This document shows positions 8,351 through 26,372 of a stretch of 64,000 nt of DNA, in pieces (the stretch's first letter is position 1; the number at the start of each line of letters is the position of its first letter). Both the position numbers and the translations under genes were made by a program. The stretch is from IMG/VR virus record IMGVR_UViG_3300025138_000014, positions 64,001 to 128,000 of that record; one strand, 5' to 3'. This DNA is from a virus. Under the pieces are notes generated by a model. The model saw only the letters and a list, made by a program, of their open reading frames with translations, searched no databases and was not told where the DNA came from.

Positions 8351-9370
8351 ATGACTGACGAAAATCAGATCGCTGATACAGAACTCCATGACGAGGACGT
8401 TATGGAAGGTTCAGTAGATCCAAAAAATGCAGAACAAGCTTCGGTTGCTTCGGTGGATAAAGCCGCAGACGCAACTAAAAAAGCTACGCCTCCAAAGACT
8501 AAAGCAGCTATGATTAATGCTATGTACGGTAAATTGCACAGCATGAATAAAACTCAGTTGTCTGCCGCTTACAATGGTATGCATTCTGAAGATGTAGATG
8601 TTGATGAAGATATGGCAGAAATTGCAGAAGCACCTGAAGTAGATTATAACTACAACGGTGAATTGCAATCTGTTATGGAATCAGAAGCAACTCTATCAGA
8701 AGAGTTTAAAGAAAAAACTGCAGTAATCTTTGAAATGGCGCTAAAAAGCACACTTGCAGAGAAAATCACTTCACTGGAAGAAAATTATGCAACCGAACTA
8801 GCAGAAGAGATTGAACAACATCAATCTGCCATGGTAGAGAAAGTTGACGGCTACCTCAATTATGTCGTAGAAAATTGGATGGAAGAAAATAAAGTTGCCA
8901 TCCAGCAAGGACTACGCACAGAAATCGCAGAAGGTTTTATGGACAAACTTAAAGATGTATTCACAGAATCATACATCGCAGTTCCAGAAGGCAAAGTTGA
9001 TCTACTTGACGAACTCTCCGAGCAAGTCACAGACCTAGAAACAGCTTTGAATGAAAGAACAACTGAAGTCTTGCAAAGCCATGAGTTGCTAGAAAACTAT
9101 GCACGAAACGAAGTAATTCGTGAAGCATCAGTTGATCTAGTTGAAACCCAAGTTGAAAAACTGGCAGCTCTTGTAGAGAATATTGACTTTGATGATATCG
9201 AATCTTTCACCAAGAAAGTCGCTATTGTTAAGGAAACTCACTTCTCCCCAGAAGCAGTCGAATCACCAATTACTGAAGATGTAGATGTTGATCAGCCTGA
9301 AGAAATCGCAGAAAAAGTTAGCGATCAAATGGCCCAGTATCTTACAGCTATCAGAAGTCAAACAAAATAA
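8351..9370 (+). CDS. gp22: Prohead scaffold gp22
   Basis: Acidic coiled coil, LSEEFKEK..IFE, YLNYVVENW, MAQYLTAI; AGGAG SD before ATG 8351. Confidence 0.9.
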   Translation: MTDENQIADTELHDEDVMEGSVDPKNAEQASVASVDKAADATKKATPPKTKAAMINAMYGKLHSMNKTQLSAAYNGMHSEDVDVDEDMAEIAEAPEVDYNYNGELQSVMESEATLSEEFKEKTAVIFEMALKSTLAEKITSLEENYATELAEEIEQHQSAMVEKVDGYLNYVVENWMEENKVAIQQGLRTEIAEGFMDKLKDVFTESYIAVPEGKVDLLDELSEQVTDLETALNERTTEVLQSHELLENYARNEVIREASVDLVETQVEKLAALVENIDFDDIESFTKKVAIVKETHFSPEAVESPITEDVDVDQPEEIAEKVSDQMAQYLTAIRSQTK

Positions 9371-9386
9371 AGAAGGATCCTATTAA

Positions 9387-10703: not shown

Positions 10704-10729
10704 ACGGAAATAAACATAACTACTACCTT

Positions 10730-10757
10730 GGGGGGGCTTCGGCCCTCCCTTTTTTTT
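10730..10757 (+). terminator. Rho-independent terminator after gp23
   Basis: GGGGGGGC-TTCG-GCCCTCCC followed by T8. Confidence 0.9.
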
Positions 10758-10778
10758 GTCTTTTTTTTAAATTAGGGG

Positions 10779-10807
10779 TTTACATACTATATTGGATAAG
10801 TTATAAC
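10779..10807 (+). promoter_or_regulatory. Early (sigma70-type) promoter
   Basis: TTTACA-N17-TATAAC; the same geometry recurs throughout the window. Confidence 0.8.
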
Positions 10808-10847
10808 TATCATATCAGAAACATAACTTAGATAAGGAAGAGTACAA

Positions 10848-11030
10848 ATGCAACAGTTATTTAATGTAGAAGTAGACGGCGTTGACCTTCAGGACTATCC
10901 GAAATTTTGTGATGCATATATTAGTTTTGCGGAAGACAACTGGGGAGTACCACTTACAGAACTAGAACTAGATGCTGTAAATGAAGACCCGCAGCTTGTC
11001 TGGGAATATGTGTTTGCAGATTTATATTAA
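10848..11030 (+). CDS. Small acidic early protein
   Basis: Own promoter and AAGGA SD; about 14 D/E versus 1 K in 60 aa. Confidence 0.7.
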   Translation: MQQLFNVEVDGVDLQDYPKFCDAYISFAEDNWGVPLTELELDAVNEDPQLVWEYVFADLY

Positions 11031-11058
11031 AAAAAATGGCTGTAAGCAATTTTAGTTG

Positions 11059-11087
11059 TTTACAGCCTAACAAAAGTCTGCTATAAC
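11059..11087 (+). promoter_or_regulatory. Early promoter
   Basis: TTTACA-N17-TATAAC. Confidence 0.8.
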
Positions 11088-11119
11088 CATTATATCGAAA
11101 CCAAACTGGAGATAATATT

Positions 11120-11404
11120 ATGATTAATCACGTCACTCGCCACGAATACCAAGGACAAAATGCAGCTAATCTGATGGCTCTTGGATTTGATGAGACAGAT
11201 GAATTTGTAACATTTAAGCAGGCTATCAAGCTGCCAGGACTCAATGGTAAACTTCTAAAAGGTATCAAGTCTAAAGCAACTCTCGTGCGTTATAGCCGAG
11301 TTGAGAAAGTGCAAGACGAAACGGGGAAGCAAACTCCTAAGCCTATCTACTTTGCAGTGTTTCACATCCTCGATGTTCTAGCACGTCGGCCAAAAGAAAT
11401 ATAA
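11120..11404 (+). CDS. ArdC-like ssDNA-binding (antirestriction N-terminal) domain protein
   Basis: N..T...YQGQN...L, FVTFKQA, KG.K, F.VF pattern matches the ArdC/DUF1738 N-domain; GGAG SD. Confidence 0.65.
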   Translation: MINHVTRHEYQGQNAANLMALGFDETDEFVTFKQAIKLPGLNGKLLKGIKSKATLVRYSRVEKVQDETGKQTPKPIYFAVFHILDVLARRPKEI

Positions 11405-11423
11405 AAAAAGATTGCTGGAGGGG

Positions 11424-11452
11424 TTTACATCTCTTCCAGTATCTGTTATAAC
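11424..11452 (+). promoter_or_regulatory. Early promoter
   Basis: TTTACA-N17-TATAAC. Confidence 0.8.
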
Positions 11453-11476
11453 TAATTAACAGAAGCAAACTAGAAA

Positions 11477-11713
11477 GTGAATACAATGATTATAGTTCAA
11501 GATATCCAAGATGCAATGATGATGCAAAAGAAACTAGGAAGCATTATCCGCCGCTCAGTAAATAGCAATAAAACATTGAAAGATGTACAAGTTGAGTTAC
11601 TGATGCTTGTTGAAGACCTCGGTAAGAATATCGAACGGTTAGATGCAGAGATAGATAAAGAGATTGAAGCACAATGGACACTCATTGAAAAGCACAACAA
11701 AGTAGAAGCATAA
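11477..11713 (+). CDS. Hypothetical coiled-coil protein
   Basis: ORF directly downstream of an early promoter. Confidence 0.6.
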   Translation: MNTMIIVQDIQDAMMMQKKLGSIIRRSVNSNKTLKDVQVELLMLVEDLGKNIERLDAEIDKEIEAQWTLIEKHNKVEA

Positions 11714-11796
11714 TGAAAAACTGGCTCTTTGCAACACTAAGCACTACAATGTCTTTTATAGTTGTAGTTGCTTTAATAACATACTACATGAATTAA
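11713..11796 (+). CDS. 27-aa single-TM peptide (not in ORF track)
   Basis: TAATG overlap with upstream ORF; MKNWLFATLSTTMSFIVVVALITYYMN; ends just before a terminator. Confidence 0.45.
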   Translation: MKNWLFATLSTTMSFIVVVALITYYMN

Positions 11797-11799
11797 TCT

Positions 11800-11826
11800 A
11801 AGGACTCTTCGGAGTCCTTTTTATTT
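11800..11826 (+). terminator. Rho-independent terminator
   Basis: AAGGACTC-TTCG-GAGTCCTT plus T-rich tail. Confidence 0.9.
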
Positions 11827-11830
11827 GCGT

Positions 11831-11858
11831 TATAAATACTTCTGTAATAAGGAAGTAT
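11831..11858 (+). promoter_or_regulatory. Late promoter overlapped by an SD-sequestering hairpin for gp3
   Basis: TATAAATA 11831-11838; ATACTTCT (11836-43) pairs with GGAAGTAT (11851-58), which overlaps the AAGGAAG SD. Confidence 0.7.
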
Positions 11859-11863
11859 GAATA

Positions 11864-12376
11864 ATGGCTGATCTAACAAAAAACATGAATTTCTTACAAC
11901 CCACTGGATTCAAGGTTGTAATTGATCGAAAAAATTACCCTAACTTAGAATACTTTGTACAGAGTACAAACCTTCCTGGCGTGTCTAGTCCAGCAGTTGA
12001 AATCGGTTACCCGAGAGCAAATATTCATATGACTGGTGGTCAATTAGATTATGATGAAATTACCATGGACATTATTTTAGATGAAAATATGGATGCATAT
12101 ACCGAAATGTATTCATGGATGGAAAGAAATGCTGAAACAAAGCAAACAACTTTAATATCTGATATTGGAAAATACAACACTCAAGCAGATGCTCCAACAA
12201 CATCAGATATAACACTTTTGGTTCTATCAAGTCATAATAATAAAACCAAAAAAATTACATATAGAGATTGTATTCCTGTGCAGCTTGGCGCAGTACAACT
12301 TATGTCTAATGTTGCCGATGTTCAGTATATTATATTGCCAGTAACATTCTCTTTTACTTACTTTGAAATTTTATAA
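11864..12376 (+). CDS. gp3: Tail tube terminator/completion protein gp3
   Basis: NFLQPTGF, YFVQSTNLPG, LDENMDAY.E...WM; usual position before uvsY in marine T4-likes. Confidence 0.8.
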   Translation: MADLTKNMNFLQPTGFKVVIDRKNYPNLEYFVQSTNLPGVSSPAVEIGYPRANIHMTGGQLDYDEITMDIILDENMDAYTEMYSWMERNAETKQTTLISDIGKYNTQADAPTTSDITLLVLSSHNNKTKKITYRDCIPVQLGAVQLMSNVADVQYIILPVTFSFTYFEIL

Positions 12377-12392
12377 ATCATGAGGACTTTTT

Positions 12393-12836
12393 ATGACACT
12401 AGAACAGTTATTGGAAATGTGGAAAACTGACTCCGAGATTGATCGGTATAAGTTAGATGAAACTTCACTAAACACTCCCAAGTTACATTCTAAATATTTA
12501 GAAATTCTGAGTATCGCTAAACTTCAGAAGAAGAAAGCTGAGCACTCACAGAAAAAATTGCTAAAGAAAAAATGGCTTTACTATAACGGGAAGCTAACTA
12601 AAGATGATATAGAAGAATTGGGTTGGGAATATGATCCATTTCAAGGACTTAAAGTTCTAAAAGGTGAAATGGAATACTACTATAATTCAGATATAGATAT
12701 TCAGAAGTCAGAAGAAAAATGCGAGTATCATAAAGTTTTTGTTGAAACAGCAACTGAAATAGTAACAAATTTAAATTGGAGACACCAGACAGTTGGTAAT
12801 ATTATTAAATGGAGGCAGTTCGAAGCGGGCGGCTAA
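12393..12836 (+). CDS. uvsY: Recombination mediator UvsY
   Basis: W..DSEID, PKLHSKYL, WLYYNGK, I.W..FEAG. Confidence 0.9.
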   Translation: MTLEQLLEMWKTDSEIDRYKLDETSLNTPKLHSKYLEILSIAKLQKKKAEHSQKKLLKKKWLYYNGKLTKDDIEELGWEYDPFQGLKVLKGEMEYYYNSDIDIQKSEEKCEYHKVFVETATEIVTNLNWRHQTVGNIIKWRQFEAGG

Positions 12837-12841
12837 ACCAA

Positions 12842-14353
12842 GTGGATAAAATTGTAATACAAAAACGTAATCAGTCAGTAATGAATGTTATATCAGATTA
12901 TGGAGTTATGAATGAGTTATCCGATCATTTCTCATTTTTCGTGCCAGGTTATAAATTCATGCCAGCTTTCCGAAATAAAGTTTGGGATGGTAAGATTAGA
13001 TTGTTTAATGCTCAGTCAGGCGAGTTGCCTGTAGGGCTATACCCATACGTTCAAGAGTTTGCTAAGCCTCGGGGCTATCATGTTGAAGTTGAGCATGATG
13101 CTATGTATGGTCGACCAGATTCAACCAATGATGTAGATCCTAAAGAATTGAATGCATTCATTGAGTCACTTAATCTCAGATCAAGAGGGACTAGAATTGG
13201 ACCAAGAGATTATCAGGTTGAAGCAATCGCAGAGGGCATTCACAGAAAAAGAGCAATTCTATTAAGCCCGACTGGTTCTGGTAAATCACTTATCATCTAT
13301 GTACTTCTCAGATGGTTGCTAGAAAAGACAAATAAAAAATTATTAATTATTGTACCAACTACAAGTTTGGTTCAGCAGATGTATACAGATTTTGAAGATT
13401 ACTCAAGCGCTGACGAAGACTGGTTTGTAGAAGATGAGTGCCACAGGATTTACTCTGGTAGACCTAAAAAGATGGATGAGCGGGTAGTTATCTCAACTTG
13501 GCAATCTGTCTATAAGTTACCAGGGGTTTGGTTTGAACAATTCTGTGGTGTATTTGGTGACGAGTGCCATGGATTTAAATCTAAGTCACTTACATCAATT
13601 ATGAATAAATCTAGGGAAGCTGAATATAGATTTGGTACGACTGGTACATTAGACGGGACTCAAACTCATAAGCTAGTATTAGAAGGTCACTTTGGTAAAA
13701 TTTATAATGTAACAACTACTCGGAAACTCCAAGACAAAGGAACACTAGCAGCACTCGATATTAAAATTCTTTTGCTAAAATATCCAGAAGAAATTTGTCG
13801 TGCTTTAAAGGGAGCAGAATATCAAGCTGAGATTGATTTCATTGTAAAGAATGAAGCACGAAACAAACTCATTACTAATTTAACAGTTGACCAAGATGGT
13901 AACACATTGGTGCTATATCAATTTGTAGAAAAGCACGGCAAACCACTCTATGATATGATCAAAGCAAAAGCGCACGAGAAAAGAAAAGTGTTCTTTGTAT
14001 CTGGTTCAGTAGAAGCATCAGATAGGGAGCAAATCAGAAAGATTGTAGAGAAACAAAAAAATGCTATTATCGTTGCCAGCCTAGGTACATTTTCTACTGG
14101 TATAAATATAAGAAATCTACACAATATAGTTTTTGCTTCCCCATCTAAATCTCAAATAAAAATACTTCAGTCAATAGGTAGAGGTTTAAGAAAGTCAGAC
14201 AATGATGTAACGACTAAACTATTTGATGTGGCAGACGATCTACATTGGAAAAGCAAGAAGAATTATACGCTAGTACATTCCGCCGAACGAATTAAGATAT
14301 ATGCTAAAGAAAACTTTAAATATAAAATTTATGAGATAGAGTTAAAAATATGA
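12842..14353 (+). CDS. uvsW: SF2 RNA-DNA/DNA helicase UvsW
   Basis: WDGKIRLF, SPTGSGKS, DECH, GTTGT, QSIGRGLR. Confidence 0.95.
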   Translation: MDKIVIQKRNQSVMNVISDYGVMNELSDHFSFFVPGYKFMPAFRNKVWDGKIRLFNAQSGELPVGLYPYVQEFAKPRGYHVEVEHDAMYGRPDSTNDVDPKELNAFIESLNLRSRGTRIGPRDYQVEAIAEGIHRKRAILLSPTGSGKSLIIYVLLRWLLEKTNKKLLIIVPTTSLVQQMYTDFEDYSSADEDWFVEDECHRIYSGRPKKMDERVVISTWQSVYKLPGVWFEQFCGVFGDECHGFKSKSLTSIMNKSREAEYRFGTTGTLDGTQTHKLVLEGHFGKIYNVTTTRKLQDKGTLAALDIKILLLKYPEEICRALKGAEYQAEIDFIVKNEARNKLITNLTVDQDGNTLVLYQFVEKHGKPLYDMIKAKAHEKRKVFFVSGSVEASDREQIRKIVEKQKNAIIVASLGTFSTGINIRNLHNIVFASPSKSQIKILQSIGRGLRKSDNDVTTKLFDVADDLHWKSKKNYTLVHSAERIKIYAKENFKYKIYEIELKI

Positions 14354-14733
14354 GTGAAATTAAACAGTTTAGATTAACAGACGGATCCGAGATCATATGC
14401 GAAGTTCTCGAATGGAATGATGACGCCACTGACCAAATAGTAATTAGAAATGCTTTAGAGATTATTTGGATGCAAAGAGGAGATAACAGGATGTGTACTT
14501 ATCGTCCATGGTTATTTCAACAGATTAGAGAAAATAGCATTTCTTGTATTACCTCTGGTCACATTATGGCCGAGAGTACACCAACAGATGAAGCTGTAGA
14601 TCAGTGGAAAGAAACCATTGACTACTTTCAAGAAAAGCCAGAGGATGAATCTACAAGTAGTTTAATGGATTCCGATACAATACCAGATGAAAACAATCTA
14701 ATATATTTGAAGCCTAAACCGGGGATTCACTGA
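14350..14733 (+). CDS. Conserved T4-like hypothetical between uvsW and gp55 (possible Sm-like fold)
   Basis: IKQFRLTDGSEIICEV pattern; synteny. Confidence 0.6.
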   Translation: MSEIKQFRLTDGSEIICEVLEWNDDATDQIVIRNALEIIWMQRGDNRMCTYRPWLFQQIRENSISCITSGHIMAESTPTDEAVDQWKETIDYFQEKPEDESTSSLMDSDTIPDENNLIYLKPKPGIH

Positions 14734-14773
14734 TTTGGACATACTATCTCTCCATCCCCAAAATGCTTAATTT

Positions 14774-14802
14774 ATTATACTAACATTTCTCTGTCCTGTA
14801 AA
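14774..14802 (-). promoter_or_regulatory. Antisense early-type promoter
   Basis: Minus strand reads GTG-TTTACA-N17-TATAAT, a perfect match to the phage early consensus; points back into 14350-14733 and uvsW. Confidence 0.7.
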
Positions 14803-14835
14803 CACCTAATATCGCCAAAACAGAAAATAATTTAC

Positions 14836-14864
14836 TTTACTTTCCCAGCCAAATGATTTATAAT
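14836..14864 (+). promoter_or_regulatory. Early promoter for gp55-gp47-gp46
   Basis: TTTACT-N17-TATAAT with TG upstream of -10. Confidence 0.7.
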
Positions 14865-14884
14865 TAACCAATAAGGAGTGAATA

Positions 14885-15478
14885 ATGGCTAAAACTAAAA
14901 AGCGTAGTATTCACTATGTAAACAACAAAGACTTCTCATATGCTGTAGTTGACTATTGTACAGAACTAAAACAAGCAAAAGAAAATGAGTCTGCACTACC
15001 CATTGTTCCAGATTACATAGCTGAATGTTTCTTAAAAATTTCTGAAGGTCTTTCTCATAAGTCCAATTTTATCAGATACACATATCGTGAAGAAATGGTT
15101 ATGGATGCAGTTGAAAACTGTCTCAAAGCCATTGAGAATTATAATATCGAAGCTGCTACACGTACGGGTAAACCAAATGCTTTTGCATACTTTACTCAAA
15201 TTAGTTGGTATGCATTCCTCAGGAGAATTGCTAAAGAAAAACGGCAACAAGAAATTAAATTTAAATATATGGTTTCCTCTGGTATTGATGCTTTCTTGGA
15301 TACAAAAAATGGAGATGTTATATCAAATAGTGTCGCAACAAACTTTATTGATGGTCTTAAAGACAGAATTGAAAAGATTAAAGAAAAAGATGTTGTTGTA
15401 AAAGAACTTGTAAAAGCAGAGAAAAAGAAAAGAAGAACCAAGTCAGCAGACTCGGATTTGACAGATTTTATAAAATGA
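14885..15478 (+). CDS. gp55: Late sigma factor gp55
   Basis: HYVNNKDF, YIAECFLKI, NFIRYTYREEMVMDAVENC, NAFAYFTQI..AFLRRI.KEK. Confidence 0.95.
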   Translation: MAKTKKRSIHYVNNKDFSYAVVDYCTELKQAKENESALPIVPDYIAECFLKISEGLSHKSNFIRYTYREEMVMDAVENCLKAIENYNIEAATRTGKPNAFAYFTQISWYAFLRRIAKEKRQQEIKFKYMVSSGIDAFLDTKNGDVISNSVATNFIDGLKDRIEKIKEKDVVVKELVKAEKKKRRTKSADSDLTDFIK

Positions 15479-15487
15479 GAAATATAT

Positions 15488-16549
15488 ATGAAAATAGCTA
15501 TATTAAATGATACGCATGCAGGTATAAGAAATGCGAGTGAAATATTTTTAAACAATGCAGACAAATTCTACTCTGAACTATTCTTTCCATATTTATTAAA
15601 AAATGATATCAAACATATTGTCCATCTAGGAGATATATTTGATCAGAGAAAATTTGTTAACTTTAAAGTGATTAATAAATTCCGTAAATGCTTTCTCAGT
15701 AAGTTAAGAGAATACAAAATCACTATGGATGTTATCCCTGGTAATCACGATGTGTTTTTTAAGAACACAAATGATCTAAACAGCTTGAAAGAGTTACTAG
15801 GTCATTACATGAATGAAGTCAACATTGTTATGGAGCCTAAAGTATTAGAATATGGCTCATTAAAAATGGGCTTAATTCCGTGGATGAATCAAGAGAATAC
15901 TGATACAACTATGGAGTTTATCAGGACTTGTAAAGCAGATATTCTGGGCGGCCATTTTGAGTTTAATGGCTTTGATATGATGCGAGGGATTAAAAATAAT
16001 CACGGAATGGATCATAAACTCTTCAAGAGATTTGAAGCAGTTTATTCTGGACACTTCCATACAAAATCACAAATAGATAATGTAATGTATCTTGGTACTC
16101 AGATGGAATTTTTCTGGTCTGATGCTCATGATAGAAAACACTTTCATGTTCTTGATTCTGAGAGCAGAGAACTAACAGCTATTGAAAACCCGCATACTTT
16201 ATATGAAAAAATTATTTATGATGACAAAGATAGGTCTTACTCTGATTATCCAGTAGATCATTTAGATGAAAAGTTTGTAAAAATAGTTGTAATTAATAAG
16301 CAAGACCTCTTTACATTTGATCGTTTTGTTGATAGAATACAGAATAGGAATATACATGAACTAAAGATTGCAGAAAACTTTGAAGAGTTTGTTGGTAATA
16401 AAGTTGAAGATTCATCAATCTCGGTCGAAGATACTAGTGAATTATTAGATAGTTATATTGAAAGTGTAGATACCACATTGGATAAAGAATTATTGAAAGG
16501 TGAAATGAGAGCACTTCTTACTGAAGCGCAGTCTCTTGAAATTGCATGA
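15488..16549 (+). CDS. gp47: Recombination nuclease gp47 (Mre11/SbcD-like)
   Basis: DTH, HLGD.FD, GNHD, GHFE, SGHFH metallophosphoesterase motifs. Confidence 0.95.
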   Translation: MKIAILNDTHAGIRNASEIFLNNADKFYSELFFPYLLKNDIKHIVHLGDIFDQRKFVNFKVINKFRKCFLSKLREYKITMDVIPGNHDVFFKNTNDLNSLKELLGHYMNEVNIVMEPKVLEYGSLKMGLIPWMNQENTDTTMEFIRTCKADILGGHFEFNGFDMMRGIKNNHGMDHKLFKRFEAVYSGHFHTKSQIDNVMYLGTQMEFFWSDAHDRKHFHVLDSESRELTAIENPHTLYEKIIYDDKDRSYSDYPVDHLDEKFVKIVVINKQDLFTFDRFVDRIQNRNIHELKIAENFEEFVGNKVEDSSISVEDTSELLDSYIESVDTTLDKELLKGEMRALLTEAQSLEIA

Positions 16550-19270: not shown

Positions 19271-20224
19271 ATGGATTTGAGTACACGTGAGAATGAATTC
19301 CTATGGTGTGAAAAGTATCGGCCCCAAAAGGTATCAGATTGTATCTTGCCTGAGGGGCTGAAAAATACCTTTGAAACACTTGTTAAAAAAGGTGAAATTC
19401 CAAACATGCTATTCACCGGCACAGCAGGTCTTGGTAAAACTACAGTAGCAAAAGCTATTTGTAATGAACTGGACCTAGACTATATACTGATTAACGGATC
19501 CGAAGAGGGTAACATTGATACGCTCCGTGGAAAGATTAAGCAGTTTGCATCTTCAATCAGCCTTCAAGGTGGTTATAAAGTTGTTATCCTAGATGAAGCG
19601 GACTATCTAAATCCGCAGAGTACACAACCAGCACTACGTGGTTTCATTGAAGAATTTTCTAATAATTGTAGATTTATTTTAACCTGCAATTTTAAAAATC
19701 GTATTATTGAACCTTTACATTCCAGATGTGGTGTGTATGAGTTTAATACTACCAAGAAAGAAATGGCCAAGTTATGCGAGAATTTCTTTTTCCGTTTCCG
19801 GCAGATATTGGAAAACGAGTATGTCGGATTTGAACAAAAAGATGCCGCCGATCTTATTGTCAAATATGCACCGGATTGGCGACGGGTACTTAACGAAGCC
19901 CAGCGTTCTGGAGTTAATGGCCAATTGGTCCTTAGCAGTCGGGTGGTGGGCAATAGTGATCAGTATAATCTTCTGTTTCAATTGTTAAAAGCAAAAGATT
20001 TTAAAAAGATGCGCACATGGGTAGTTAATAATATGGATGTAGATGCAGCCGCTATCTTCCGTGGTATATATGATAATATGCAGACAAGTGTTTCACAGGG
20101 TTCTATACCTCAGCTTGTTCTTATTCTAGCAGACTACCAATATAAGAATGCCTTTGTAGCAGATCACGAATTAAATATTGTGGCATGTTGTACAGAAATC
20201 ATGGCTAACGTGGAGTTCACATGA
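19271..20224 (+). CDS. gp44: Clamp loader large subunit gp44
   Basis: LWCEKYRP, GTAGLGKTT, ILDEAD, PLHSRC. Confidence 0.96.
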   Translation: MDLSTRENEFLWCEKYRPQKVSDCILPEGLKNTFETLVKKGEIPNMLFTGTAGLGKTTVAKAICNELDLDYILINGSEEGNIDTLRGKIKQFASSISLQGGYKVVILDEADYLNPQSTQPALRGFIEEFSNNCRFILTCNFKNRIIEPLHSRCGVYEFNTTKKEMAKLCENFFFRFRQILENEYVGFEQKDAADLIVKYAPDWRRVLNEAQRSGVNGQLVLSSRVVGNSDQYNLLFQLLKAKDFKKMRTWVVNNMDVDAAAIFRGIYDNMQTSVSQGSIPQLVLILADYQYKNAFVADHELNIVACCTEIMANVEFT

Positions 20225-21324
20225 GAATTGATCCAGATACAAAACTAGACTATAAAGATGTGTTATTAAGTCCTAAGAGGTCTACACTAACAAGTCGCAA
20301 TGAAGTAGACCTACGGCGTGAATTTTCATTTAGGTCAACTTCAGCCCAATATTTTGGCGTACCAATTATAGCAGCTAATATGGACGGCGTTGGTACTTTT
20401 GAAATGTCTGATAAACTTGGATCAAGAGGTTTATTCACTTGTCTTAATAAAAATTATAATGTAATGGAATACGTTGCTTATTTTGATGATCCAGATATGC
20501 CATTAGATCGTAAAGAATTTTCAGCATATACAATGGGTATTAGCGATAAAGATATGGCTGACTTCCTTAGTGTATATGAAATGTGCGATGGCAATATTAA
20601 ATATGTTTGCGTGGATGTAGCTAACGGCTACACACAAAGATTTATTACATTTGTTAAAGAATTAAAGAGATATTTTCCAACCCTAATTATTATTGCTGGT
20701 AATGTTGTTACAGCAAATCAAACAGAGGAGTTAATTTTAAATGGAGCCGATATCGTTAAAATTGGGATTGGTCCTGGTTCTGTTTGTACTACTCGCTTAC
20801 AGACTGGCGTTGGTTACCCTCAGCTTTCTGCAGTTATCGAGTGCGCTGATGCTGCTCATGGTTTGGGTGGGCATATCATTGCTGATGGTGGTTGCAACAC
20901 TCCAGCTGATGTAGTAAAAGCATTTGCAGGTGGAGCTGATTTTGTTATGCTTGGAGGTATGCTATCTGGTCACGATGAAGGCGGCGGAGAAGTTATTACC
21001 AAAGTCTATGAAACAAATGAAGTTACTCTCATGGCTGACGGTTTTTATGATTCAGTATATGAAGAAAAGAACTTTGTAAAATTTTATGGAATGAGTTCAG
21101 ATACTGCTAATGTTAAACACAACGGTGGGCTTAAAGATTATCGTAGTTCAGAAGGCCGTGAAGTTTTAGTTCCTTATCGAGGTCTTGTAGATGATACACT
21201 TCAAGATATTCTTGGTGGACTTAGAAGTGCGTGTACTTATGTTGGAGCAGAACAAATAAAAAATCTAAGTAAATGTACTACATTTATTCGTTGTAATGAT
21301 ACTCATAATAGGGTTTACGAATGA
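20221..21324 (+). CDS. guaC: GMP reductase
   Basis: LDYKDVLL.PKRSTL.SR, ANMDGVG, CVDVANGY, GIGPGSVCTTR, GYPQLSAVIECADAAHG, FYGMSS, YRSSEG. Confidence 0.93.
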   Translation: MRIDPDTKLDYKDVLLSPKRSTLTSRNEVDLRREFSFRSTSAQYFGVPIIAANMDGVGTFEMSDKLGSRGLFTCLNKNYNVMEYVAYFDDPDMPLDRKEFSAYTMGISDKDMADFLSVYEMCDGNIKYVCVDVANGYTQRFITFVKELKRYFPTLIIIAGNVVTANQTEELILNGADIVKIGIGPGSVCTTRLQTGVGYPQLSAVIECADAAHGLGGHIIADGGCNTPADVVKAFAGGADFVMLGGMLSGHDEGGGEVITKVYETNEVTLMADGFYDSVYEEKNFVKFYGMSSDTANVKHNGGLKDYRSSEGREVLVPYRGLVDDTLQDILGGLRSACTYVGAEQIKNLSKCTTFIRCNDTHNRVYE

Positions 21325-21587
21325 TAAAAAATCTGTTATTATATACAAAAGACAACTGCATCTATTGCCACTTTCTAAAAGAAAAGTTAGATGACTGGGA
21401 ATTTAAATATGATGTAGTACATAATGTTGGCTTACCTGCCGATCATAAAACTTATCCACAATTGTATTATGAAGGTATAGATGTTCAAAGAGGTTCTTCT
21501 ACTGATCTAACAAGAGATGATCTAATGAATAGAATTGAAAGAATAGAATGGCCAAATATGGATAGCGGAGTAGAAGGTAAATTATGA
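21321..21587 (+). CDS. Glutaredoxin-like protein
   Basis: YTKDNCIYC CxxC motif and TYPQL cis-Pro motif. Confidence 0.75.
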   Translation: MIKNLLLYTKDNCIYCHFLKEKLDDWEFKYDVVHNVGLPADHKTYPQLYYEGIDVQRGSSTDLTRDDLMNRIERIEWPNMDSGVEGKL

Positions 21588-21973
21588 GTATAAGTCCTTT
21601 TGATTTTTTAAATACAATCAATTCTAGTAAAAAAGATATTATGGTAGATGACTTAGCAGAAAAAGCATATGCTCCTTTTGTTATCAATCGCACTCTATCA
21701 TACTTTCCAGATACTGTTGGAATTGCAAATGAGATGAACCGATATCATCATATAGATAAAAAGCTACAATATCACTTTCTTATAAATATAGTTAGAAAAA
21801 GAAAGCGTTTTTCTAAATGGGCCAAGGCTCAAAAAGATAGTGATATTGATGCAGTTAAGACATATTATGGGTATAGTAATGAAAAAGCCCGTCAAGCCTT
21901 AACTCTATTATCACCTGAACAAATACAGATAATAATAGAGAAGGTGAGTAAAGGTGGAAAAAGAAGAAAATAA
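21584..21973 (+). CDS. gp62: Clamp loader small subunit gp62
   Basis: PFDFLNTIN, FVINR.LS, RKRFSKW, YYGYSNEKA. Confidence 0.92.
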   Translation: MSISPFDFLNTINSSKKDIMVDDLAEKAYAPFVINRTLSYFPDTVGIANEMNRYHHIDKKLQYHFLINIVRKRKRFSKWAKAQKDSDIDAVKTYYGYSNEKARQALTLLSPEQIQIIIEKVSKGGKRRK

Positions 21974-22370
21974 AATTATACAGTGGTCTCCGCAAACTAT
22001 GCTTGAGATTACATTAAATGAACCCGATGACTTTCTCAAAGTAAGAGAAACTTTAACACGTATCGGTGTTGCATCCCGAAAAGATAATAAATTATACCAA
22101 TCGTGCCATATCTTGCATAAACAAGGAAGATATTTTATAGTGCACTTTAAAGAATTGTTCCTTTTAGATGGAAAGAAGTCCAACCTAGATGAGAATGATA
22201 TATCAAGACGAAACACAATTGCAACTCTTATGTCTGATTGGGGTTTGGTTACAATGGAAACTAGAGGACAAACTCTCAGTTTAGCACCATTGAGACAAAT
22301 TAAAATTATACCATTTAAAGAGAAATCAAATTGGCAACTGTGTCCAAAATATAATATAGGAAATAAATAA
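21954..22370 (+). CDS. regA: Translational repressor RegA
   Basis: DDFLKVRETLTRIGVAS, LYQSCHILHKQGRYFIVHFKELF. Confidence 0.96.
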   Translation: MEKEENKIIQWSPQTMLEITLNEPDDFLKVRETLTRIGVASRKDNKLYQSCHILHKQGRYFIVHFKELFLLDGKKSNLDENDISRRNTIATLMSDWGLVTMETRGQTLSLAPLRQIKIIPFKEKSNWQLCPKYNIGNK

Positions 22371-22410: not shown

Positions 22411-22418
22411 TATAAATA
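22411..22418 (+). promoter_or_regulatory. Late promoter of the hsp20 operon
   Basis: Exact TATAAATA, intergenic, 60 nt before the hsp20 ATG. Confidence 0.75.
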
Positions 22419-22420
22419 GA

Positions 22421-22481
22421 CTTGTAGAGCGGATAATCCGGCTACAATTTAATCTTGCTTGCTCAAAAGGAGATAACAATG
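22421..22481 (+). promoter_or_regulatory. ROSE-like RNA thermometer in the hsp20 5' UTR
   Basis: 5' hairpin TTGTAG..CGGA-taa-TCCG..CTACAA, then UCUU(G)CUU pairing with AAGGAGA (SD) with a bulged G; this is the U(U/C)GCU ROSE signature upstream of a small heat-shock gene. Confidence 0.7.
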
Positions 22482-22937
22482 ACAGGCTTACACACACTCT
22501 TCCCTCGCTCATCTTTTGTAGGATTTGATCATCTATTCAACGAACTAGAATGGACGGCAAAACATGCTCAGGATCATTACCCACCCCACAATATTATTAA
22601 GACAGATGAATCAGAATATTTGATTGAACTTGCTATTGCTGGGTTTTCCAAAGATGAAATTAACGTTGAAGTTAAAGATAGAACTTTGACTGTTAAAGGG
22701 GAACATATTTCTAAAGGTCGTGACTTTATTCATCGTGGTATTTCTACGAAGAAATTTAAGCGCACTTTTCGGCTGTCTGAACATGTAAATGTAAACGGAG
22801 CAGATATTCAAGACGGTATTCTGGCAATTCAGTTGCAGTATATTATCCCAGAAGAAATGCGTCCTCGTAAAATCAATATTGGTCAAACGAGGAATTCAAA
22901 TGACACAGACAAAGAACTACTTAACGAAGGCCGTTAA
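22479..22937 (+). CDS. hsp20: Small heat-shock protein (Hsp20/IbpA family)
   Basis: FVGFDHLF, YPPHNI, IELAIAGF, HRGIS...F.R.F.L, GIL.I.L, PEEMRPRKI. Confidence 0.95.
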   Translation: MTGLHTLFPRSSFVGFDHLFNELEWTAKHAQDHYPPHNIIKTDESEYLIELAIAGFSKDEINVEVKDRTLTVKGEHISKGRDFIHRGISTKKFKRTFRLSEHVNVNGADIQDGILAIQLQYIIPEEMRPRKINIGQTRNSNDTDKELLNEGR

Positions 22938-23184
22938 GTTACCACTCAACATACTAAAATCAATTTGGAACGGCATTAAATTAAGTGCTGATATCCGTCA
23001 AACACGAGGTGAACTTTCAAAACTAAATGATGCTGAGTTAAGAGACATCGGTATAACTAGAGGTGATATTGAAGCGATAGCAAGAGGCGATGCTGATTTA
23101 CTACGTTCCGCAGTAAGGAATAAATTTTATTTACCAGATGGTCCTATAAGTTATGTTAATCCTAATTTAAAAGGATGGAGCTAA
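22900..23184 (+). CDS. DUF1127 (YjiS-like) small protein
   Basis: RQTRGELSKLNDAELRDIGITRGDI is the DUF1127 core; GAGG SD before ATG 22900. Confidence 0.85.
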   Translation: MTQTKNYLTKAVKLPLNILKSIWNGIKLSADIRQTRGELSKLNDAELRDIGITRGDIEAIARGDADLLRSAVRNKFYLPDGPISYVNPNLKGWS

Positions 23185-23366
23185 TGACAGCTATCAATAC
23201 AAACATATCTTTCTCTTCGCCATTATCGGACTTGTGGTTAGCATTCGAACGTTGGTTCCAGATAGTGGGATACAGCCGAGCGGCAGCGGAGTTGGCAAGA
23301 CATGGTCAATTAGAAGCAGCCAAAATGTGCATGATGGAAGTGAAAAGAGTACGTAATGGAAGGTGA
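23184..23366 (+). CDS. Small helical hypothetical protein
   Basis: GGAG SD, TAATG coupling; [13 protein letters not shown] motif. Confidence 0.65.
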
Positions 23367-23577
23367 TATCGCAACAATGGGCGCTCTAATTGGCGCTGGA
23401 CTAGCAACGTTCGGAATGGGTGGCGCCGCCATCGCAGTAGGAATGATTGTTGGTAGTGTACTTAAAGTTATGCCCAAGAAGCCTGACTCTGGTACTATGT
23501 TTGTTGGTATTGCTTTTGCAGAAGCATTAGGCATCTTTGCCTTTCTAACAGCATTGTTACTTATGTTCGCAGTCTAA
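23356..23577 (+). CDS. atpE: F0 ATP synthase subunit c homologue with rewired polar loop
   Basis: MEGDI..MGA.IGAGLA..GMGGAA and [26 protein letters not shown] closely match Rhodobacteraceae subunit c as I recall it; the loop lacks RNP. Confidence 0.9.
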
Positions 23578-23789
23578 TGGCTGAGAATCATTTTAGTGCA
23601 GAAGTGGTACAACGCATAGGCTTTTACTCTTTTGCAACAATGTCTTCATTAATAGTAATATGTATTGCCTTTGGGTTTTATGCAGTATTACAAAAATTTA
23701 ATGAACCAAGTTGGAAAGAGGCATGTATTACCAATGGCGGAGTTCCCGTCCAGATTGCAAAGTCAACATTCGACTGTAAAGTCATATAA
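23577..23789 (+). CDS. Small membrane protein with C-terminal Cys pair
   Basis: One TM helix, then C..NGG.P......FDC; TAATG coupling to atpE. Confidence 0.6.
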   Translation: MAENHFSAEVVQRIGFYSFATMSSLIVICIAFGFYAVLQKFNEPSWKEACITNGGVPVQIAKSTFDCKVI

Positions 23790-23793: not shown

Positions 23794-23817
23794 AAAAGAG
23801 GGCTTCGGCCCTCTTTT
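23794..23817 (+). terminator. Terminator closing the hsp20-atpE operon
   Basis: AAAAGAGGGC-TTCG-GCCCTCTTTT. Confidence 0.88.
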
Positions 23818-23821: not shown

Positions 23822-23850
23822 TTTACAACACCGTCATAATAGTTTATAAT
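23822..23850 (+). promoter_or_regulatory. Early promoter for gp43
   Basis: TTTACA-N17-TATAAT. Confidence 0.8.
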
Positions 23851-23876: not shown

Positions 23877-26372
23877 TTGTCTTTTTACACATCAGTTAAT
23901 CGTTACGGCAACTCTATCTTATATCGTGGATATAATGACTCTGGAGTTGCTACAGAAACAAAATATAAATTTACCCCTAAACTTTATATTCGATCTCAAG
24001 ATACAAATACAGAATACAAAGCCCTAGATGGTACACCTGTAAAAGAAGTCAACTTTCCTAAAATGGCAGAAGCAAAAGAGTTTTGTGAACAGTACAAAGA
24101 TATTAAAGATTTCAGCGTGTATGGTCAGACCAATTATATTCAACAGTTTATTACAGATAAGTTTCCCGGCAATATTATATTTAATCCTAAACAAGTTAAT
24201 GTTGTAAACTTTGACATAGAAGTCGCTTCCGATGAGGGTTTTCCTAGACCAGAAGAAGCATTGTTTCCAGTTATATCTATTGCTCTCAAGTCTAGCAAAT
24301 CTTCCATATATGAAGTGTGGGGCCTTGGTGATTACGATCACGAGAAAACAGAATTGAATATGAATGGCGATCTTATTCGTTATAGAAAGTTTGATAGTGA
24401 GCAAGCACTTCTTGCCAGCTTCCATAAATATTGGTGTGAGAATAGACCAGATATTGTAACTGGCTGGAACTGTAGATTTTTTGATATACCATATATTATT
24501 AATAGATTGTATCGTATTGGTTCTCCAGAAGCAGTCAAAAGATTGTCTCCCTGGAACTTAGTAAATGAACGCAATACCAAAATCATGGGTAAAGAACAGC
24601 AAGGATATGAAATTGTTGGTATTCAACAAGCAGACTATCTTGAGCTGTTTAAAAAGTTTGGTTACTCTTATGGAACCCAAGAGTCATATGCATTAAATCA
24701 TGTTGCATTTACTGTTCTTGGCGAGAAGAAATTATCATATGAAGAACATGGTAGTTTGCATACACTCTATGAAAAAGATCACCAAAAGTTTATTGATTAT
24801 AACATTAAAGATGTTCAACTTGTTCAACGCATTGACGATAAGATGGGTCTTATTGAACTGGTACAAACTATGGCTTATCGTGCTGGTGTTAATATATCAG
24901 ATACATTTGGTACTACGGCGATATGGGATTCAATCATATATCGTTCACTAAATAGTCAAAAGATTGTTATCATGCCTATCACAGAAAAACAGAAACTACC
25001 TTACCCTGGTGGTTATGTAAAAGATCCAAAAGTTGGCATGCACGAGTGGGTTGTATCCTTTGACCTTAACTCACTATATCCAAATCTTATTGTACAATAT
25101 AATATGTCTCCAGAAACAATCGTTGGTGGTTATCCCCTTGAGAATGGCGTAGAACATTATATGAACTGTGACAAAGTTGTTAGCGAATATGCTGTAGCAG
25201 CTAACGGTTCTCAATATAGAAAAGATAAGCAAGGCATTATCCCTAAAATTATTATTCAGTATTATTCAGAACGTAAAGAAGTCAAGAAGCGCATGTTAAA
25301 AGCGCAGAGTGATTATGAGAAGAATAAAACCACAGAACTTGAAAGAGAAATCAATACACTTCATAACCAACAGATGGCTATTAAGATTTTGTTAAACAGT
25401 CTTTATGGCGCACTCGGTAATCGGTTCTTTAGATATTTTGATATGAGAATGGCCGAAGGTATTACTCTATCTGGTCAACTTTCTATCCTGTGGGCTGAAC
25501 GTGCTATCAATGCAGAAATGAATAAAATTCTAAATACAACGGAGAAAGATTATGTTATTGCTATTGACACTGACTCAGTCTATATTAATTTTGGTCCTCT
25601 TATTGCTAAACTGGCGCCAGCGGACCCTGTTAAAGCACTGGACAAAATATGTAAGGAGCACTTCACTAAAATACTAGCTGACTCTTATGCTAAACTGTTT
25701 GATAATATGAATGGTTATGATAATAGAATGGTTATGGAGCGTGAAGCAATTGCTGATAAAGCTATCTGGACTGCAAAGAAAAGATATATTTTAAACGTGC
25801 ATAATAACGAAGGAGTCCAGTACAAAGAACCTAAACTCAAGATCATGGGTATTGAAGCTGTTAAATCTTCGACACCTCAGGTTGTTAGAGACAAGTTCAA
25901 AGAAATTTTTGATGTTCTAATTAACGGTACTGAAGTTACCACTCAGAAATACATAGCAGACTTCAGACGTGAATTCAATTCTCTACCTCCCGAAGCCGTA
26001 TCATTTCCAAGAGGTGTGACTAATGTTACAGATTGGATAGATAGAAAGACCATTTTCAAGAAAGGCTGTCCAATTCATGTTCGTGGTTCTATTCTATACA
26101 ATAATACGGTCAAAAGTAAAGCAGTGGACAAAAGATATGGTTTAATTCAGAATGGTGAGAAGATTAAGTTTGTTTATCTCAAGATGCCAAATCCAATAAA
26201 GCAAAATGTTATAGCATTTCCGCAATATCTGCCTACTGAATTAGCCCTGCATAAATACATTGACTACGATAAAATGTTTGAGAAAACTTTTATTGAACCT
26301 ATTAAACCTATTCTGGACGCAATCGGATGGACTGTTGAAGATCAGATGACGCTGGAAGACTTTTTTGGATAA
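23877..26372 (+). CDS. gp43: Family B DNA polymerase gp43 (TTG start)
   Basis: ExoI FDIEV, SFDLNSLYP, K..LNSLYGALG, DTDS, KKRY; GGAG SD before TTG. Confidence 0.97.
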   Translation: MSFYTSVNRYGNSILYRGYNDSGVATETKYKFTPKLYIRSQDTNTEYKALDGTPVKEVNFPKMAEAKEFCEQYKDIKDFSVYGQTNYIQQFITDKFPGNIIFNPKQVNVVNFDIEVASDEGFPRPEEALFPVISIALKSSKSSIYEVWGLGDYDHEKTELNMNGDLIRYRKFDSEQALLASFHKYWCENRPDIVTGWNCRFFDIPYIINRLYRIGSPEAVKRLSPWNLVNERNTKIMGKEQQGYEIVGIQQADYLELFKKFGYSYGTQESYALNHVAFTVLGEKKLSYEEHGSLHTLYEKDHQKFIDYNIKDVQLVQRIDDKMGLIELVQTMAYRAGVNISDTFGTTAIWDSIIYRSLNSQKIVIMPITEKQKLPYPGGYVKDPKVGMHEWVVSFDLNSLYPNLIVQYNMSPETIVGGYPLENGVEHYMNCDKVVSEYAVAANGSQYRKDKQGIIPKIIIQYYSERKEVKKRMLKAQSDYEKNKTTELEREINTLHNQQMAIKILLNSLYGALGNRFFRYFDMRMAEGITLSGQLSILWAERAINAEMNKILNTTEKDYVIAIDTDSVYINFGPLIAKLAPADPVKALDKICKEHFTKILADSYAKLFDNMNGYDNRMVMEREAIADKAIWTAKKRYILNVHNNEGVQYKEPKLKIMGIEAVKSSTPQVVRDKFKEIFDVLINGTEVTTQKYIADFRREFNSLPPEAVSFPRGVTNVTDWIDRKTIFKKGCPIHVRGSILYNNTVKSKAVDKRYGLIQNGEKIKFVYLKMPNPIKQNVIAFPQYLPTELALHKYIDYDKMFEKTFIEPIKPILDAIGWTVEDQMTLEDFFG

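What the first reader, a model, noticed from the sequence alone, without database searches (positions are those of the whole stretch)
23356..23577. ATP synthase c-subunit that keeps the proton-carrying Glu but has lost the F1-coupling loop
Seen: both TM helices are intact ([18 protein letters not shown]; [26 protein letters not shown]), but the loop reads [14 protein letters not shown]. Known: Rhodobacteraceae subunit c has about NFISGALRNPSAAASQTAT here (recalled), and the R-(Q/N)-P motif is near-invariant and contacts gamma/epsilon; E. coli loop mutants uncouple F0 from F1. The phage loop is about 5 residues shorter, Lys-rich and has no Arg, while the helices are conserved, which suggests selection rather than decay. 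No other atp gene is in the window. Inference: it co-assembles into host c-rings as a dominant-negative inhibitor or proton leak, blocks reverse ATP hydrolysis, or docks a phage partner.
Basis: partly seen in the sequence, partly recalled or inferred. Interest (0 to 1): 0.9.

Follow-up and report, generated by a model that had tools for sequence, protein, structure and literature searches.

The report
Phage rotor subunit without F1 grip
An uncultured marine T4-like phage carries a strongly conserved copy of its host group's ATP-synthase rotor protein (subunit c) that keeps the proton-carrying membrane parts but has a shortened, rewritten loop where the ATP-making head normally docks, and it always travels with small phage-only partner proteins, so it most likely interferes with or rewires the host's energy machine rather than replacing a part.

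Summary
ORF 23356-23577 (+, 73 aa) is a true ATP-synt_C hairpin (Pfam 43.5 bits, cut-off 24). Its closest solved relative is the Paracoccus denitrificans c subunit.

- **Loop:** every parsed Rhodobacterales c subunit (66/66) has A-L-R-N-P. All 40 distinct viral versions lack it. The window's loop is 5 residues shorter, Lys-rich and has no Arg.
- **Selection:** the gene is under strong purifying selection (dN/dS 0.09; outer helix 0.04), and the Glu is invariant. It is fully adapted to phage base composition, so it is an old, functional phage gene.
- **Origin:** viral copies form one clade, so this was a single capture, not recurrent loss. Full-length non-RNP loops are basal; the -5 loop is derived.
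- **Cassette:** the gene always sits in DUF1127 / 51-65-aa protein / c / one-helix membrane protein ("orf70"). This holds in 80 viral contigs with different flanks. orf70 and the small upstream protein have no relatives outside these phages.
- **Context:** no other atp gene was found in the 151-kb record.

Best reading (about 45%): an F1-incompetent rotor subunit that still uses the host proton channel and uncouples or brakes Fo. This is untested. I found no literature on it. This scan had already noted the same family on other phage genomes.

The parts
22411..22418 (+). T4-type late-promoter motif TATAAATA, in the gap between regA and hsp20
   Evidence: All 14 copies of the motif in the window lie on the + strand. 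The same motif sits 886-960 nt upstream of the c gene in related loci that share the regA-hsp20 context, but not in loci with other contexts. Late timing is inferred, not shown.
22479..22937 (+). hsp20 small heat-shock protein, first gene of the putative operon
   Evidence: Pfam PF00011, 63.1 bits. An ATG follows a GGAG site. hsp20 also lies near the cassette in other contexts, for example L042 and L162.
22900..23184 (+). DUF1127 (YjiS-like) small protein, first conserved gene of the cassette
   Evidence: Pfam PF06568, 40.2 bits. A homologue lies upstream of c in nearly all 80 viral loci. The C-terminal N-L-K-G-W-(V/S) motif is conserved among the phage copies.
23175..23366 (+). orf63, a small phage-only protein whose stop overlaps the c start codon
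   Evidence: An upstream ORF of this kind was found in 74 of 75 parsed loci, most with a shared core around R-A-A-x-E-L-x-R-x-G-x-x-E-E-A-K. There are two subtypes: amphipathic, or with a hydrophobic segment. Two loci (L074, L080) have a 40-aa hydrophobic peptide in its place. No Pfam, PHROG or NCBIfam match. Only viral clusters in the ESM Atlas.
23356..23577 (+). Phage c subunit (AtpE-derived) with a shortened, Arg-less loop; Glu56 retained
   Evidence: In the AF2 model, helix 1 spans residues 2-38, the loop 39-44 and helix 2 residues 45-72.
23577..23789 (+). orf70, a phage-only single-pass membrane protein; its start shares a base with the c stop (TAATG)
   Evidence: Found directly after c in nearly all loci. 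The conserved positions G15, F19, M22, L25, C29, G33 and V37 lie on one helix face. The AF2 model shows a long helix 3-41 followed by a small helix and beta-hairpin domain holding the second conserved Cys. Only 51 clusters at 90% identity and 7 at 50% identity exist in the big protein libraries, none named. No fold match in the PDB.
23794..23817 (+). GC-rich hairpin with a T run, an intrinsic-terminator-like end to the operon
   Evidence: It is followed by a sigma70-like TTTACA-17-TATAAT at 23822-23850, ahead of the DNA polymerase gene gp43.

Best explanation
The gene encodes a phage-adapted derivative of the Rhodobacterales F-type ATP synthase c subunit. It was captured once, long ago, and has since been kept by many marine T4-like and larger phages.

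It still folds as the two-helix hairpin. It keeps the ring-packing surfaces and the proton-binding Glu, so it can form or join a c-ring and exchange protons through the host's subunit a. The phage has no subunit a of its own.

The hairpin tip that protrudes into the cytoplasm, where the Arg-Asn-Pro loop grips gamma/epsilon, has been rewritten. In this phage it is also trimmed by about one helical turn. Rings that contain it should grip F1 poorly or not at all.

It is made together with its dedicated single-pass partner orf70 and the small upstream proteins, probably late in infection in this phage. The expected net effect is to disconnect proton flow through Fo from ATP synthesis or hydrolysis. 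That could work as a proton leak, as a brake, or as a competitor for stator subunits. Either way it would reset the membrane energetics of the infected cell.

Shown: identity, fold, loop change, selection, single origin and cassette linkage. Inferred: ring formation, use of host subunit a, failure to bind F1, expression timing and the physiological effect.
For: - **Family and fold:** Pfam 43.5 bits. 5dn6_J is the best sequence match and the best fold match. The AF2 model is a hairpin with pLDDT 80.7.
- **Loop:** 66/66 parsed cellular relatives have R-N-P. None of the 40 distinct viral proteins has it.
- **Selection:** dN/dS is 0.087 overall and 0.039 in helix 2 across 37 distinct genes. Comparing viral with cellular helix 2, synonymous sites are saturated (pS about 1.0) and GC3 is 0.25 against 0.83, yet pN is only 0.076.
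- **Glu:** E56 and its flanks are invariant. From general knowledge, a buried carboxylate is needed for proton transport and not for ring assembly (E. coli D61 mutants still assemble). Its retention argues for a working proton site, and so for a partner with half-channels. None is encoded in the record.
- **Equivalog threshold:** the window protein falls below the alphaproteobacterial AtpE cut-off (59.3 against 85 bits). A cellular c scores 108.
- **Cassette:** DUF1127-orf63-c-orf70 is conserved in 80 viral loci with differing flanks.
- **Loop function (my own recall, not retrieved here):** E. coli c R41, Q42 and P43 contact gamma/epsilon, and R41K/H and Q42E mutants lose F1 binding or coupling (Fillingame laboratory, 1985-1995).
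Against: - No experiment or expression data exist.
- In an infected cell host ATP synthases are already assembled, and c subunits are not known to exchange. The phage protein may therefore meet little free subunit a.
- Within the -5 class the new loop is itself conserved (pN/pS about 0.2). A pure loss-of-grip model does not require that; it hints at a new contact.
- The benefit to the phage of uncoupling is unclear, because a free F1 would waste ATP.
- The late-promoter motif is seen only in the regA-hsp20 context.
Confidence: 0.45

Rival explanations
1. Autonomous phage device. The phage c subunits form their own ring with orf70, and perhaps orf63 or DUF1127 as a cytoplasmic cap. This ring acts independently of host Fo, for example as a gated conductance or pore that sets membrane potential or lysis timing, or as a membrane scaffold.
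For: - orf70 and orf63 are strictly co-inherited, translationally coupled and phage-only.
- One face of the orf70 helix is conserved along the whole membrane span, as expected for helix-helix packing.
- The new loop motif is conserved within its class.
- The whole cytoplasmic collar is removed, which would leave the ring mouth uncapped.
Against: - The invariant Glu56 and the near-host-identical outer helix are not needed for a passive pore or a scaffold.
- orf70 has no mid-membrane Arg or other sign of a subunit-a-like half-channel.
- No holin or other pore family matched orf70 in Pfam or PHROGs.
Confidence: 0.2
2. Working spare part or gear shift. The phage subunit still couples to F1, alone or mixed with host c. 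It sustains ATP synthesis during infection, or changes it through a different ring size and H+/ATP ratio.
For: - The helices and the Glu are conserved as in a working c subunit.
- Several viral lineages carry substitutions in the helix-1 Gly motif: G27A in this phage, G29A/S in a sister clade, and G23L/F in the full-length-loop classes. From my own recall, such changes are known to alter c-ring stoichiometry in Bacillus pseudofirmus and Ilyobacter tartaricus.
- Basal viral classes keep a full-length loop with the Pro and a nearby Arg.
Against: - R-N-P is invariant in every parsed cellular relative and absent from every viral copy.
- The window protein fails the AtpE equivalog threshold.
- The loop is 5 residues shorter, so it would sit below the host loops in a mixed ring.
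- E. coli R41K is already uncoupled (my own recall).
Confidence: 0.12
3. Decoy or shield. The phage subunit titrates a host factor, a defence factor or a toxin that acts on the c-ring or on Fo assembly (for example YidC or AtpI-type insertion and assembly factors). It would do this without itself working in proton transport.
For: There is only the general pattern of a host-like surface combined with a disabled functional loop. The cassette lies among other host-derived accessory genes.
Against: No c-ring-targeting defence system is known to me. The conserved Glu is not explained. No defence-related neighbours were seen, but PADLOC was not searched.
Confidence: 0.05
4. A neutral hitch-hiker or decaying remnant of a captured host gene, with no function.
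For: None beyond the altered loop.
Against: - dN/dS is 0.087 with saturated synonymous sites.
- The frame is intact in the 75 viral loci where the whole gene lies on the contig.
- Base composition is fully ameliorated to that of the phage.
- Gene order and overlapping start and stop codons are conserved.
Confidence: 0.02

Closest known systems
AtpE, the F-type ATP synthase c subunit of Rhodobacterales/Paracoccaceae (solved example: Paracoccus denitrificans F1Fo, PDB 5DN6, chain J)
   Same: - Two-helix hairpin.
- Helix 2, including the A-F-A-E-A-L-G-I-F proton site, is almost identical.
- Gly/Ala-rich helix 1.
- Up to 68% overall identity to cellular genomes.
   Different: - No R-N-P; the loop is rewritten and 5 residues shorter.
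- The polar residues at the cytoplasmic end of helix 1 (H/N31 and N35 in hosts) are replaced by M/I and S.
- G27A in the Gly motif.
- Not in an atp operon; it is encoded by a phage beside phage-only small proteins.
- Scores below the NF005733 equivalog cut-off.
E. coli uncoupled c-subunit loop mutants (R41K/H, Q42E, P43 changes). This rests on my own recall of the Fillingame-laboratory literature, which I did not retrieve here.
   Same: The change is confined to the polar loop that contacts gamma/epsilon, while the proton site stays intact.
   Different: Those are laboratory point mutants of the cell's own gene. Here a natural, selected and much more radical loop replacement sits in a second, virus-borne copy with partner genes.
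Small-protein regulators of ATP synthase and membrane complexes: AtpTheta in cyanobacteria and DUF1127 proteins that bind PhoR (PMC12648545); YjiS at the inner membrane (PMC11707872)
   Same: The cassette is made entirely of small membrane or membrane-associated proteins. One of them belongs to DUF1127, whose characterised members act by binding integral inner-membrane proteins.
   Different: None of the known regulators is a modified rotor subunit. The role of the phage DUF1127 copy is unknown, and it may concern phosphate signalling rather than Fo.
Phage auxiliary metabolic genes that copy host bioenergetic parts, for example cyanophage psbA or the pseudoazurin found beside this cassette in L009
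   Same: A host-derived membrane-energetics gene kept under purifying selection in marine phages.
   Different: Classical examples preserve the host function. Here the one surface needed for the host function, F1 docking, is systematically removed.

Membership tests
Pfam PF00137 ATP-synt_C (domain-level family) | Profile match above the gathering threshold over the full domain | tested here: met
   43.5 bits against 24, covering profile positions 1-60/60. It is also the only hit in the 151-kb record.
Pfam PF00137 ATP-synt_C (domain-level family) | Hairpin of two transmembrane helices | tested here: met
   The AF2 model has helices 2-38 and 45-72, pLDDT 80.7. All top Foldseek hits are c subunits, with 5dn6_J first at probability 0.99 but a weak E-value of 0.077, as expected for a short hairpin.
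Functional F-type c subunit (AtpE equivalog, NCBIfam NF005733) | Ion-binding carboxylate in the middle of helix 2 | tested here: met
   Glu56 is invariant in A1 (38 sequences) and A3 (24 viral sequences).
Functional F-type c subunit (AtpE equivalog, NCBIfam NF005733) | Conserved polar loop R-(Q/N)-P that contacts gamma/epsilon | tested here: not met
   The window has K-V-M-P-K-K-P-D and no Arg. All 40 distinct viral proteins lack R-N-P, whereas 66/66 parsed cellular relatives have it.
Functional F-type c subunit (AtpE equivalog, NCBIfam NF005733) | Score above the curated equivalog cut-off | tested here: not met
   59.3 bits against a cut-off of 85. The cellular control L084 scores 108.2, and a full-length-loop viral copy (L078) scores 88.1.
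Functional F-type c subunit (AtpE equivalog, NCBIfam NF005733) | Encoded with the other Fo/F1 genes (atpB, atpF, and so on) | tested here: not met
   No PF00119, PF00430 or PF02823 match in the record. In cellular loci the neighbours are AtpI, a, b' and b.
Functional F-type c subunit (AtpE equivalog, NCBIfam NF005733) | Assembles into a ring that binds F1 and couples proton flow to ATP synthesis | not testable with these tools
   This needs complementation, vesicle assays and purification.
V/A-type proteolipid (subunit K) or N-ATPase c subunit | Profile match above the family cut-off | tested here: not met
   NF004888 scores 20.3 against 101. TIGR03322 scores 28.4 against 130.85.
orf70 as a derivative of a host Fo protein (AtpI, a, b', b) | Detectable profile-profile similarity | tested here: not met
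   hhalign probability is at most 12.5% against alignments of the four host proteins.
orf70 as a holin or other known phage membrane-protein family | Match to a Pfam or PHROG family | tested here: not met
   No PHROG match. The only Pfam hit is sub-threshold and irrelevant, at 16.7 bits. There is no PDB fold match.

The most novel reading that the evidence does not exclude
Marine phages have turned the host's ATP-synthase rotor subunit into the core of a phage-specific membrane device. In this reading an F1-free c-ring is built with a dedicated single-pass partner, plus small cytoplasmic or membrane-associated proteins. It uses the host proton channel, or its own ring lumen, as a controllable conductance. 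That would give the phage direct control over the infected cell's proton-motive force, for example as an energy valve or a lysis and superinfection clock. It would be a previously undescribed class of phage effector acting on bioenergetics.
Probability: 0.25. Interest if true: 0.9.

Novelty: new variant of a known kind. Interest (0 to 1): 0.78.

Why it matters
ATP synthase is the central energy converter of the cell. I found no paper describing a virus that carries a modified rotor subunit. Five full-text searches returned nothing relevant, and there was no match in 50,697 deposited phage genomes.

If the protein works as inferred, it is a natural, selected "uncoupling" subunit. It would show that phages manipulate proton-motive force or ATP synthase coupling directly, in an abundant group of marine bacteria (roseobacters). 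It would also give biochemists a ready-made tool for separating ring assembly and proton binding from F1 docking.

The strictly linked phage-only partners (orf70, orf63) are candidates for new c-ring-binding proteins. The family is common in marine viromes: 80 IMG/VR contigs, many metagenome clusters, and contigs of up to 328 kb.

Tried and rejected
- **Complex prediction:** three copies of c plus orf70 gave no verdict (score 0.00, controls not run). It counts neither for nor against binding.
- **Fusion search:** the 'longer' protein search for a c-orf70 fusion found only singleton cellular a-c run-ons and no phage-type fusion.
- **orf70 ancestry:** comparison with host AtpI, a, b' and b gave no significant similarity. 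Foldseek against the PDB gave nothing. The ESM Atlas gave only viral hypothetical clusters for orf70 and orf63.
- **orf63 and the downstream ORF:** orf63 compared with the 44-51-aa ORF found after orf70 in other contexts shows only a motif-level resemblance (hhalign probability 20%).
- **Deposited phage genomes:** tblastn of the phage c against INPHARED gave no match. The window's own record may be excluded from that collection.
- **Other c-subunit types in viruses:** I scanned IMG/VR with an A-R-Q-P-E-type proteobacterial query and a gammaproteobacterial query. The first returned only this same family and the second returned nothing. These scans are pattern-limited, so this is weak evidence that no other phage c family exists.
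- **Recurrent loss:** rejected, because the tree shows a single viral clade.
- **Pseudogene:** rejected by the selection analysis.
- **Alignment of the deletion:** MAFFT places the gap before P-K-K-P and HMMER places it after. Counting from the fixed anchors (the Gly of G-V-G and Glu56), and comparing with the full-length viral loops that share the M-P step, favours a 3 + 2 trimming around a retained Pro. That is inference.

Full report
**What is there**

The window is part of a 151-kb IMG/VR virus record, estimated 71% complete. It has T4-type replication genes:
- clamp-loader gp62 at 21584-21973
- regA at 21954-22370
- DNA polymerase gp43 at 23877-26372

Between regA and gp43 lies a tight row of small genes, all on the + strand:
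- hsp20 (22479-22937)
- a DUF1127 protein (22900-23184)
- a 63-aa ORF (23175-23366)
- the reported ORF (23356-23577, 73 aa)
- a 70-aa ORF (23577-23789)

Neighbouring genes overlap or abut. A T4 late-promoter motif, TATAAATA, stands at 22411 in the gap after regA. All 14 copies of this motif in the window are on the + strand. A GC-rich hairpin with a T run at 23794-23817 closes the row. A sigma70-like promoter precedes gp43. Late expression is therefore plausible, but it is only inferred.

**Checking the observation**

The 73-aa protein matches Pfam ATP-synt_C over the entire profile, at 43.5 bits against a cut-off of 24. Its best solved relative is the c subunit of Paracoccus denitrificans ATP synthase, 5dn6_J, with E 1.2e-14. 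An AlphaFold model built on 24 viral sequences is a helical hairpin: helix 2-38, loop 39-44, helix 45-72, pLDDT 80.7. Its best structural matches are all c subunits, with 5dn6_J first.

I scanned 185,579 species genomes. The 80 best cellular relatives are all Rhodobacterales or unclassified Pseudomonadota/Alphaproteobacteria MAGs, with at most 68% identity. Every one of the 66 loops I could parse reads ..G-A-L-R-N-P-(S/A)-A-A... The window protein has [11 protein letters not shown] instead. That is five residues fewer, three Lys and no Arg.

Glu56 and the surrounding A-F-A-E-A-L-G-I-F are invariant. No homologue of subunit a, b or epsilon was found anywhere in the record.

I add one refinement. 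A proline (P40, in M-P-K-K) is retained in at least 90% of viral copies. Counting from the fixed Gly of helix 1 and from Glu56, the hairpin has lost about three residues on one arm and two on the other. The tip is trimmed by roughly one helical turn and rewritten.

**A family, not a one-off**

A search of 5.8 billion proteins gave a graded series:
- 73-75-aa proteins at 80-92% identity, with the same short loop
- 74-78-aa proteins with other non-RNP loops
- the 78-aa cellular proteins, at 60-68% identity

IMG/VR holds at least 80 viral contigs with the gene. Their 40 distinct proteins fall into loop classes:
- the -5 class, K-(V/Y/H)-M-P-K-K-x-D
- a -3 class with an added G-E-G-D
- full-length classes such as A-M-A-M-P-H-R-S, where the Pro is kept and the Arg is displaced
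- a class with no Pro at all

None has R-N-P.

In a maximum-likelihood tree of 40 viral and 55 cellular proteins, the viral ones lie on one side of a single branch (SH-aLRT 97). The -5 class is a derived, well-supported clade (support 98). The full-length-loop classes sit nearest the cellular sequences (this was the quick search, on 78 columns). The simplest history is one capture from a Rhodobacterales-like host, loss of the Arg-Asn step, then progressive shortening. It is not recurrent loss.

**Selection**

Among 37 distinct -5-class genes, dN/dS by the Nei-Gojobori method is:
- 0.087 overall
- 0.11 for the N-terminus and helix 1
- 0.039 for helix 2
- for the loop, pN 0.15 against a saturated pS of 0.76

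Between viral and cellular helix 2, synonymous sites are saturated (pS about 1.0). Third-position GC is 0.25 against 0.83, yet pN is 0.076. The gene has therefore lived in phage genomes for a long time. Selection holds its membrane core at a near-host sequence. The new loop is constrained as well.

The window protein scores 59.3 bits against the alphaproteobacterial AtpE equivalog model (cut-off 85). A cellular control scores 108.2. It belongs to the domain family but fails the test for the functional equivalog.

**The cassette**

In all 80 viral loci the c gene is followed by a homologue of the 70-aa ORF, at once or within about 30 nt. In nearly all it is preceded by a DUF1127 gene and a 51-65-aa ORF whose stop overlaps the c start.

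This four-gene block keeps its order while the flanks change:
- regA/hsp20 and gp43 here
- uvsX and a gp41-type helicase elsewhere
- also pstS, a cation-efflux gene, sulfotransferases, ribonucleotide reductase, and pseudoazurin directly beside it
- a 328-kb contig that encodes IF3, ribosomal protein S21 and ClpS

orf70 is a single-pass membrane protein. Its invariant residues (G15, F19, M22, L25, C29, G33, V37) line one face of the helix. The model shows a long helix followed by a small helix and beta-hairpin domain holding the second conserved Cys. One sub-clade has lost that C-terminal domain but keeps the helix.

The family has only 51 clusters at 90% identity, all unnamed. It has seven clusters at 50% identity among 1.84 billion representatives. 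It shows no similarity to host AtpI, a, b' or b and no PDB fold match. orf63 is likewise known only from viral clusters.

DUF1127 proteins are peripheral inner-membrane regulators in the cases studied. They bind the sensor kinase PhoR, and YjiS sits at the membrane (PMC12648545, PMC11707872).

**How it most likely works**

Three facts constrain the mechanism:
1. The proton-binding Glu and the whole outer helix are held fixed. To my knowledge the Glu is not needed for ring assembly, so proton binding itself appears to be selected. That requires half-channels, and only host subunit a can supply them.
2. The only part that is systematically replaced is the cytoplasmic tip. In known enzymes this tip contacts gamma/epsilon. 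E. coli R41, Q42 and P43 mutants are uncoupled or lose F1 (my recall of the Fillingame-laboratory work, not retrieved here).
3. The polar residues at the cytoplasmic end of helix 1 become hydrophobic and the hairpin is shorter. The ring should therefore lack the collar on which F1's foot sits.

My best reading, at about 45%, is an F1-incompetent rotor subunit. It would form or join rings that still engage host subunit a, and so disconnect proton flow from ATP synthesis or hydrolysis. This could act as a leak, a brake or a sink for stator subunits. orf70 would then be a ring-binding helper or regulator.

The main rival, at about 20%, is an autonomous ring-plus-partner device that does not use host Fo. 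The exclusive partners and the conserved new loop favour it. The conserved Glu argues against it.

A coupled "spare part or gear-shift" role, at about 12%, is suggested only by Gly-motif substitutions: G27A here, G29A/S and G23L/F in other classes. The loop data contradict it. Decoy (5%) and neutral remnant (2%) are unlikely.

**Novelty and earlier notes**

Five full-text literature searches found no description of a phage-encoded c subunit. The gene has no match in 50,697 deposited phage genomes. Scans of IMG/VR with two other proteobacterial c-subunit types found only this same family or nothing (these are pattern-limited).

This scan has already reported the same family on at least five other phage genomes, with the same general reading. 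I re-derived those points independently here.
- a single origin with an ordered loop-shortening series
- the 3 + 2 trimming around a retained Pro
- the failure at the equivalog threshold
- the saturation and amelioration figures
- the exhaustive-search rarity of orf70
- the helix-face conservation in orf70

No step had to be referred.

Noticed in passing
window 20221-21587: A GMP-reductase/IMPDH-family gene (Pfam PF00478, 232 bits) and an 88-aa ORF with a C-x-x-C motif, which I did not search, lie just upstream of the clamp-loader gp62 gene. guaC and hsp20 also recur near the c-subunit cassette in unrelated contexts (L042, L076, L162).
   Followed up: partly
L009:4602-5030 (also L049): A pseudoazurin/plastocyanin-family copper protein with a signal peptide (PF00127, 51.3 bits) lies directly after the cassette in some phages. 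It is a second host-type bioenergetic gene next to the altered c subunit.
   Followed up: partly
L009:4459-4593, L011:4445-4579 and similar: In contexts other than regA-gp43, a 44-51-aa ORF follows orf70. It has a conserved M-E-Y-R-S-Y-C-M ... I-S-E-F-K-H pattern. It resembles the core of orf63 only at motif level (hhalign probability 20%).
   Followed up: partly
L026:3396-3593, L042:3368-3547, L078:3239-3433: Another conserved 59-67-aa ORF (motif ..A-K-T-E-Y..D-W-x-F-A-Y-Q-Y-M-L..) often precedes the DUF1127 gene. It has no Pfam match. The cassette may be larger than four genes.
   Followed up: no
L162 (328-kb metagenome contig), 1-16219: A very large putative phage contig carries the cassette together with IF3, ribosomal protein S21, ClpS, HSP20, GuaC, a xanthine/uracil permease and PEPCK. 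The cassette therefore crosses phage lineages.
   Followed up: no
window 22900-23184 and homologues: The phage DUF1127 proteins share a conserved extreme C-terminus, N-L-(K/R)-G-(W/F/A)-(V/S), which overlaps the start of the next gene. I did not check whether it occurs outside the phage copies.
   Followed up: no
window 23356-23577, residues 20-33: Helix-1 Gly motif substitutions differ by viral lineage: G27A in this phage, G29A/S in the clade with truncated orf70, and G23L/F in the full-length-loop classes. A few viral copies keep the host motif. This could bear on ring size or on packing with orf70.
   Followed up: partly
window 23310-23534 (- strand): A 74-aa antisense ORF overlaps the c gene. 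It has no support and is probably a by-product of the Gly/Ala-rich codons opposite.
   Followed up: no
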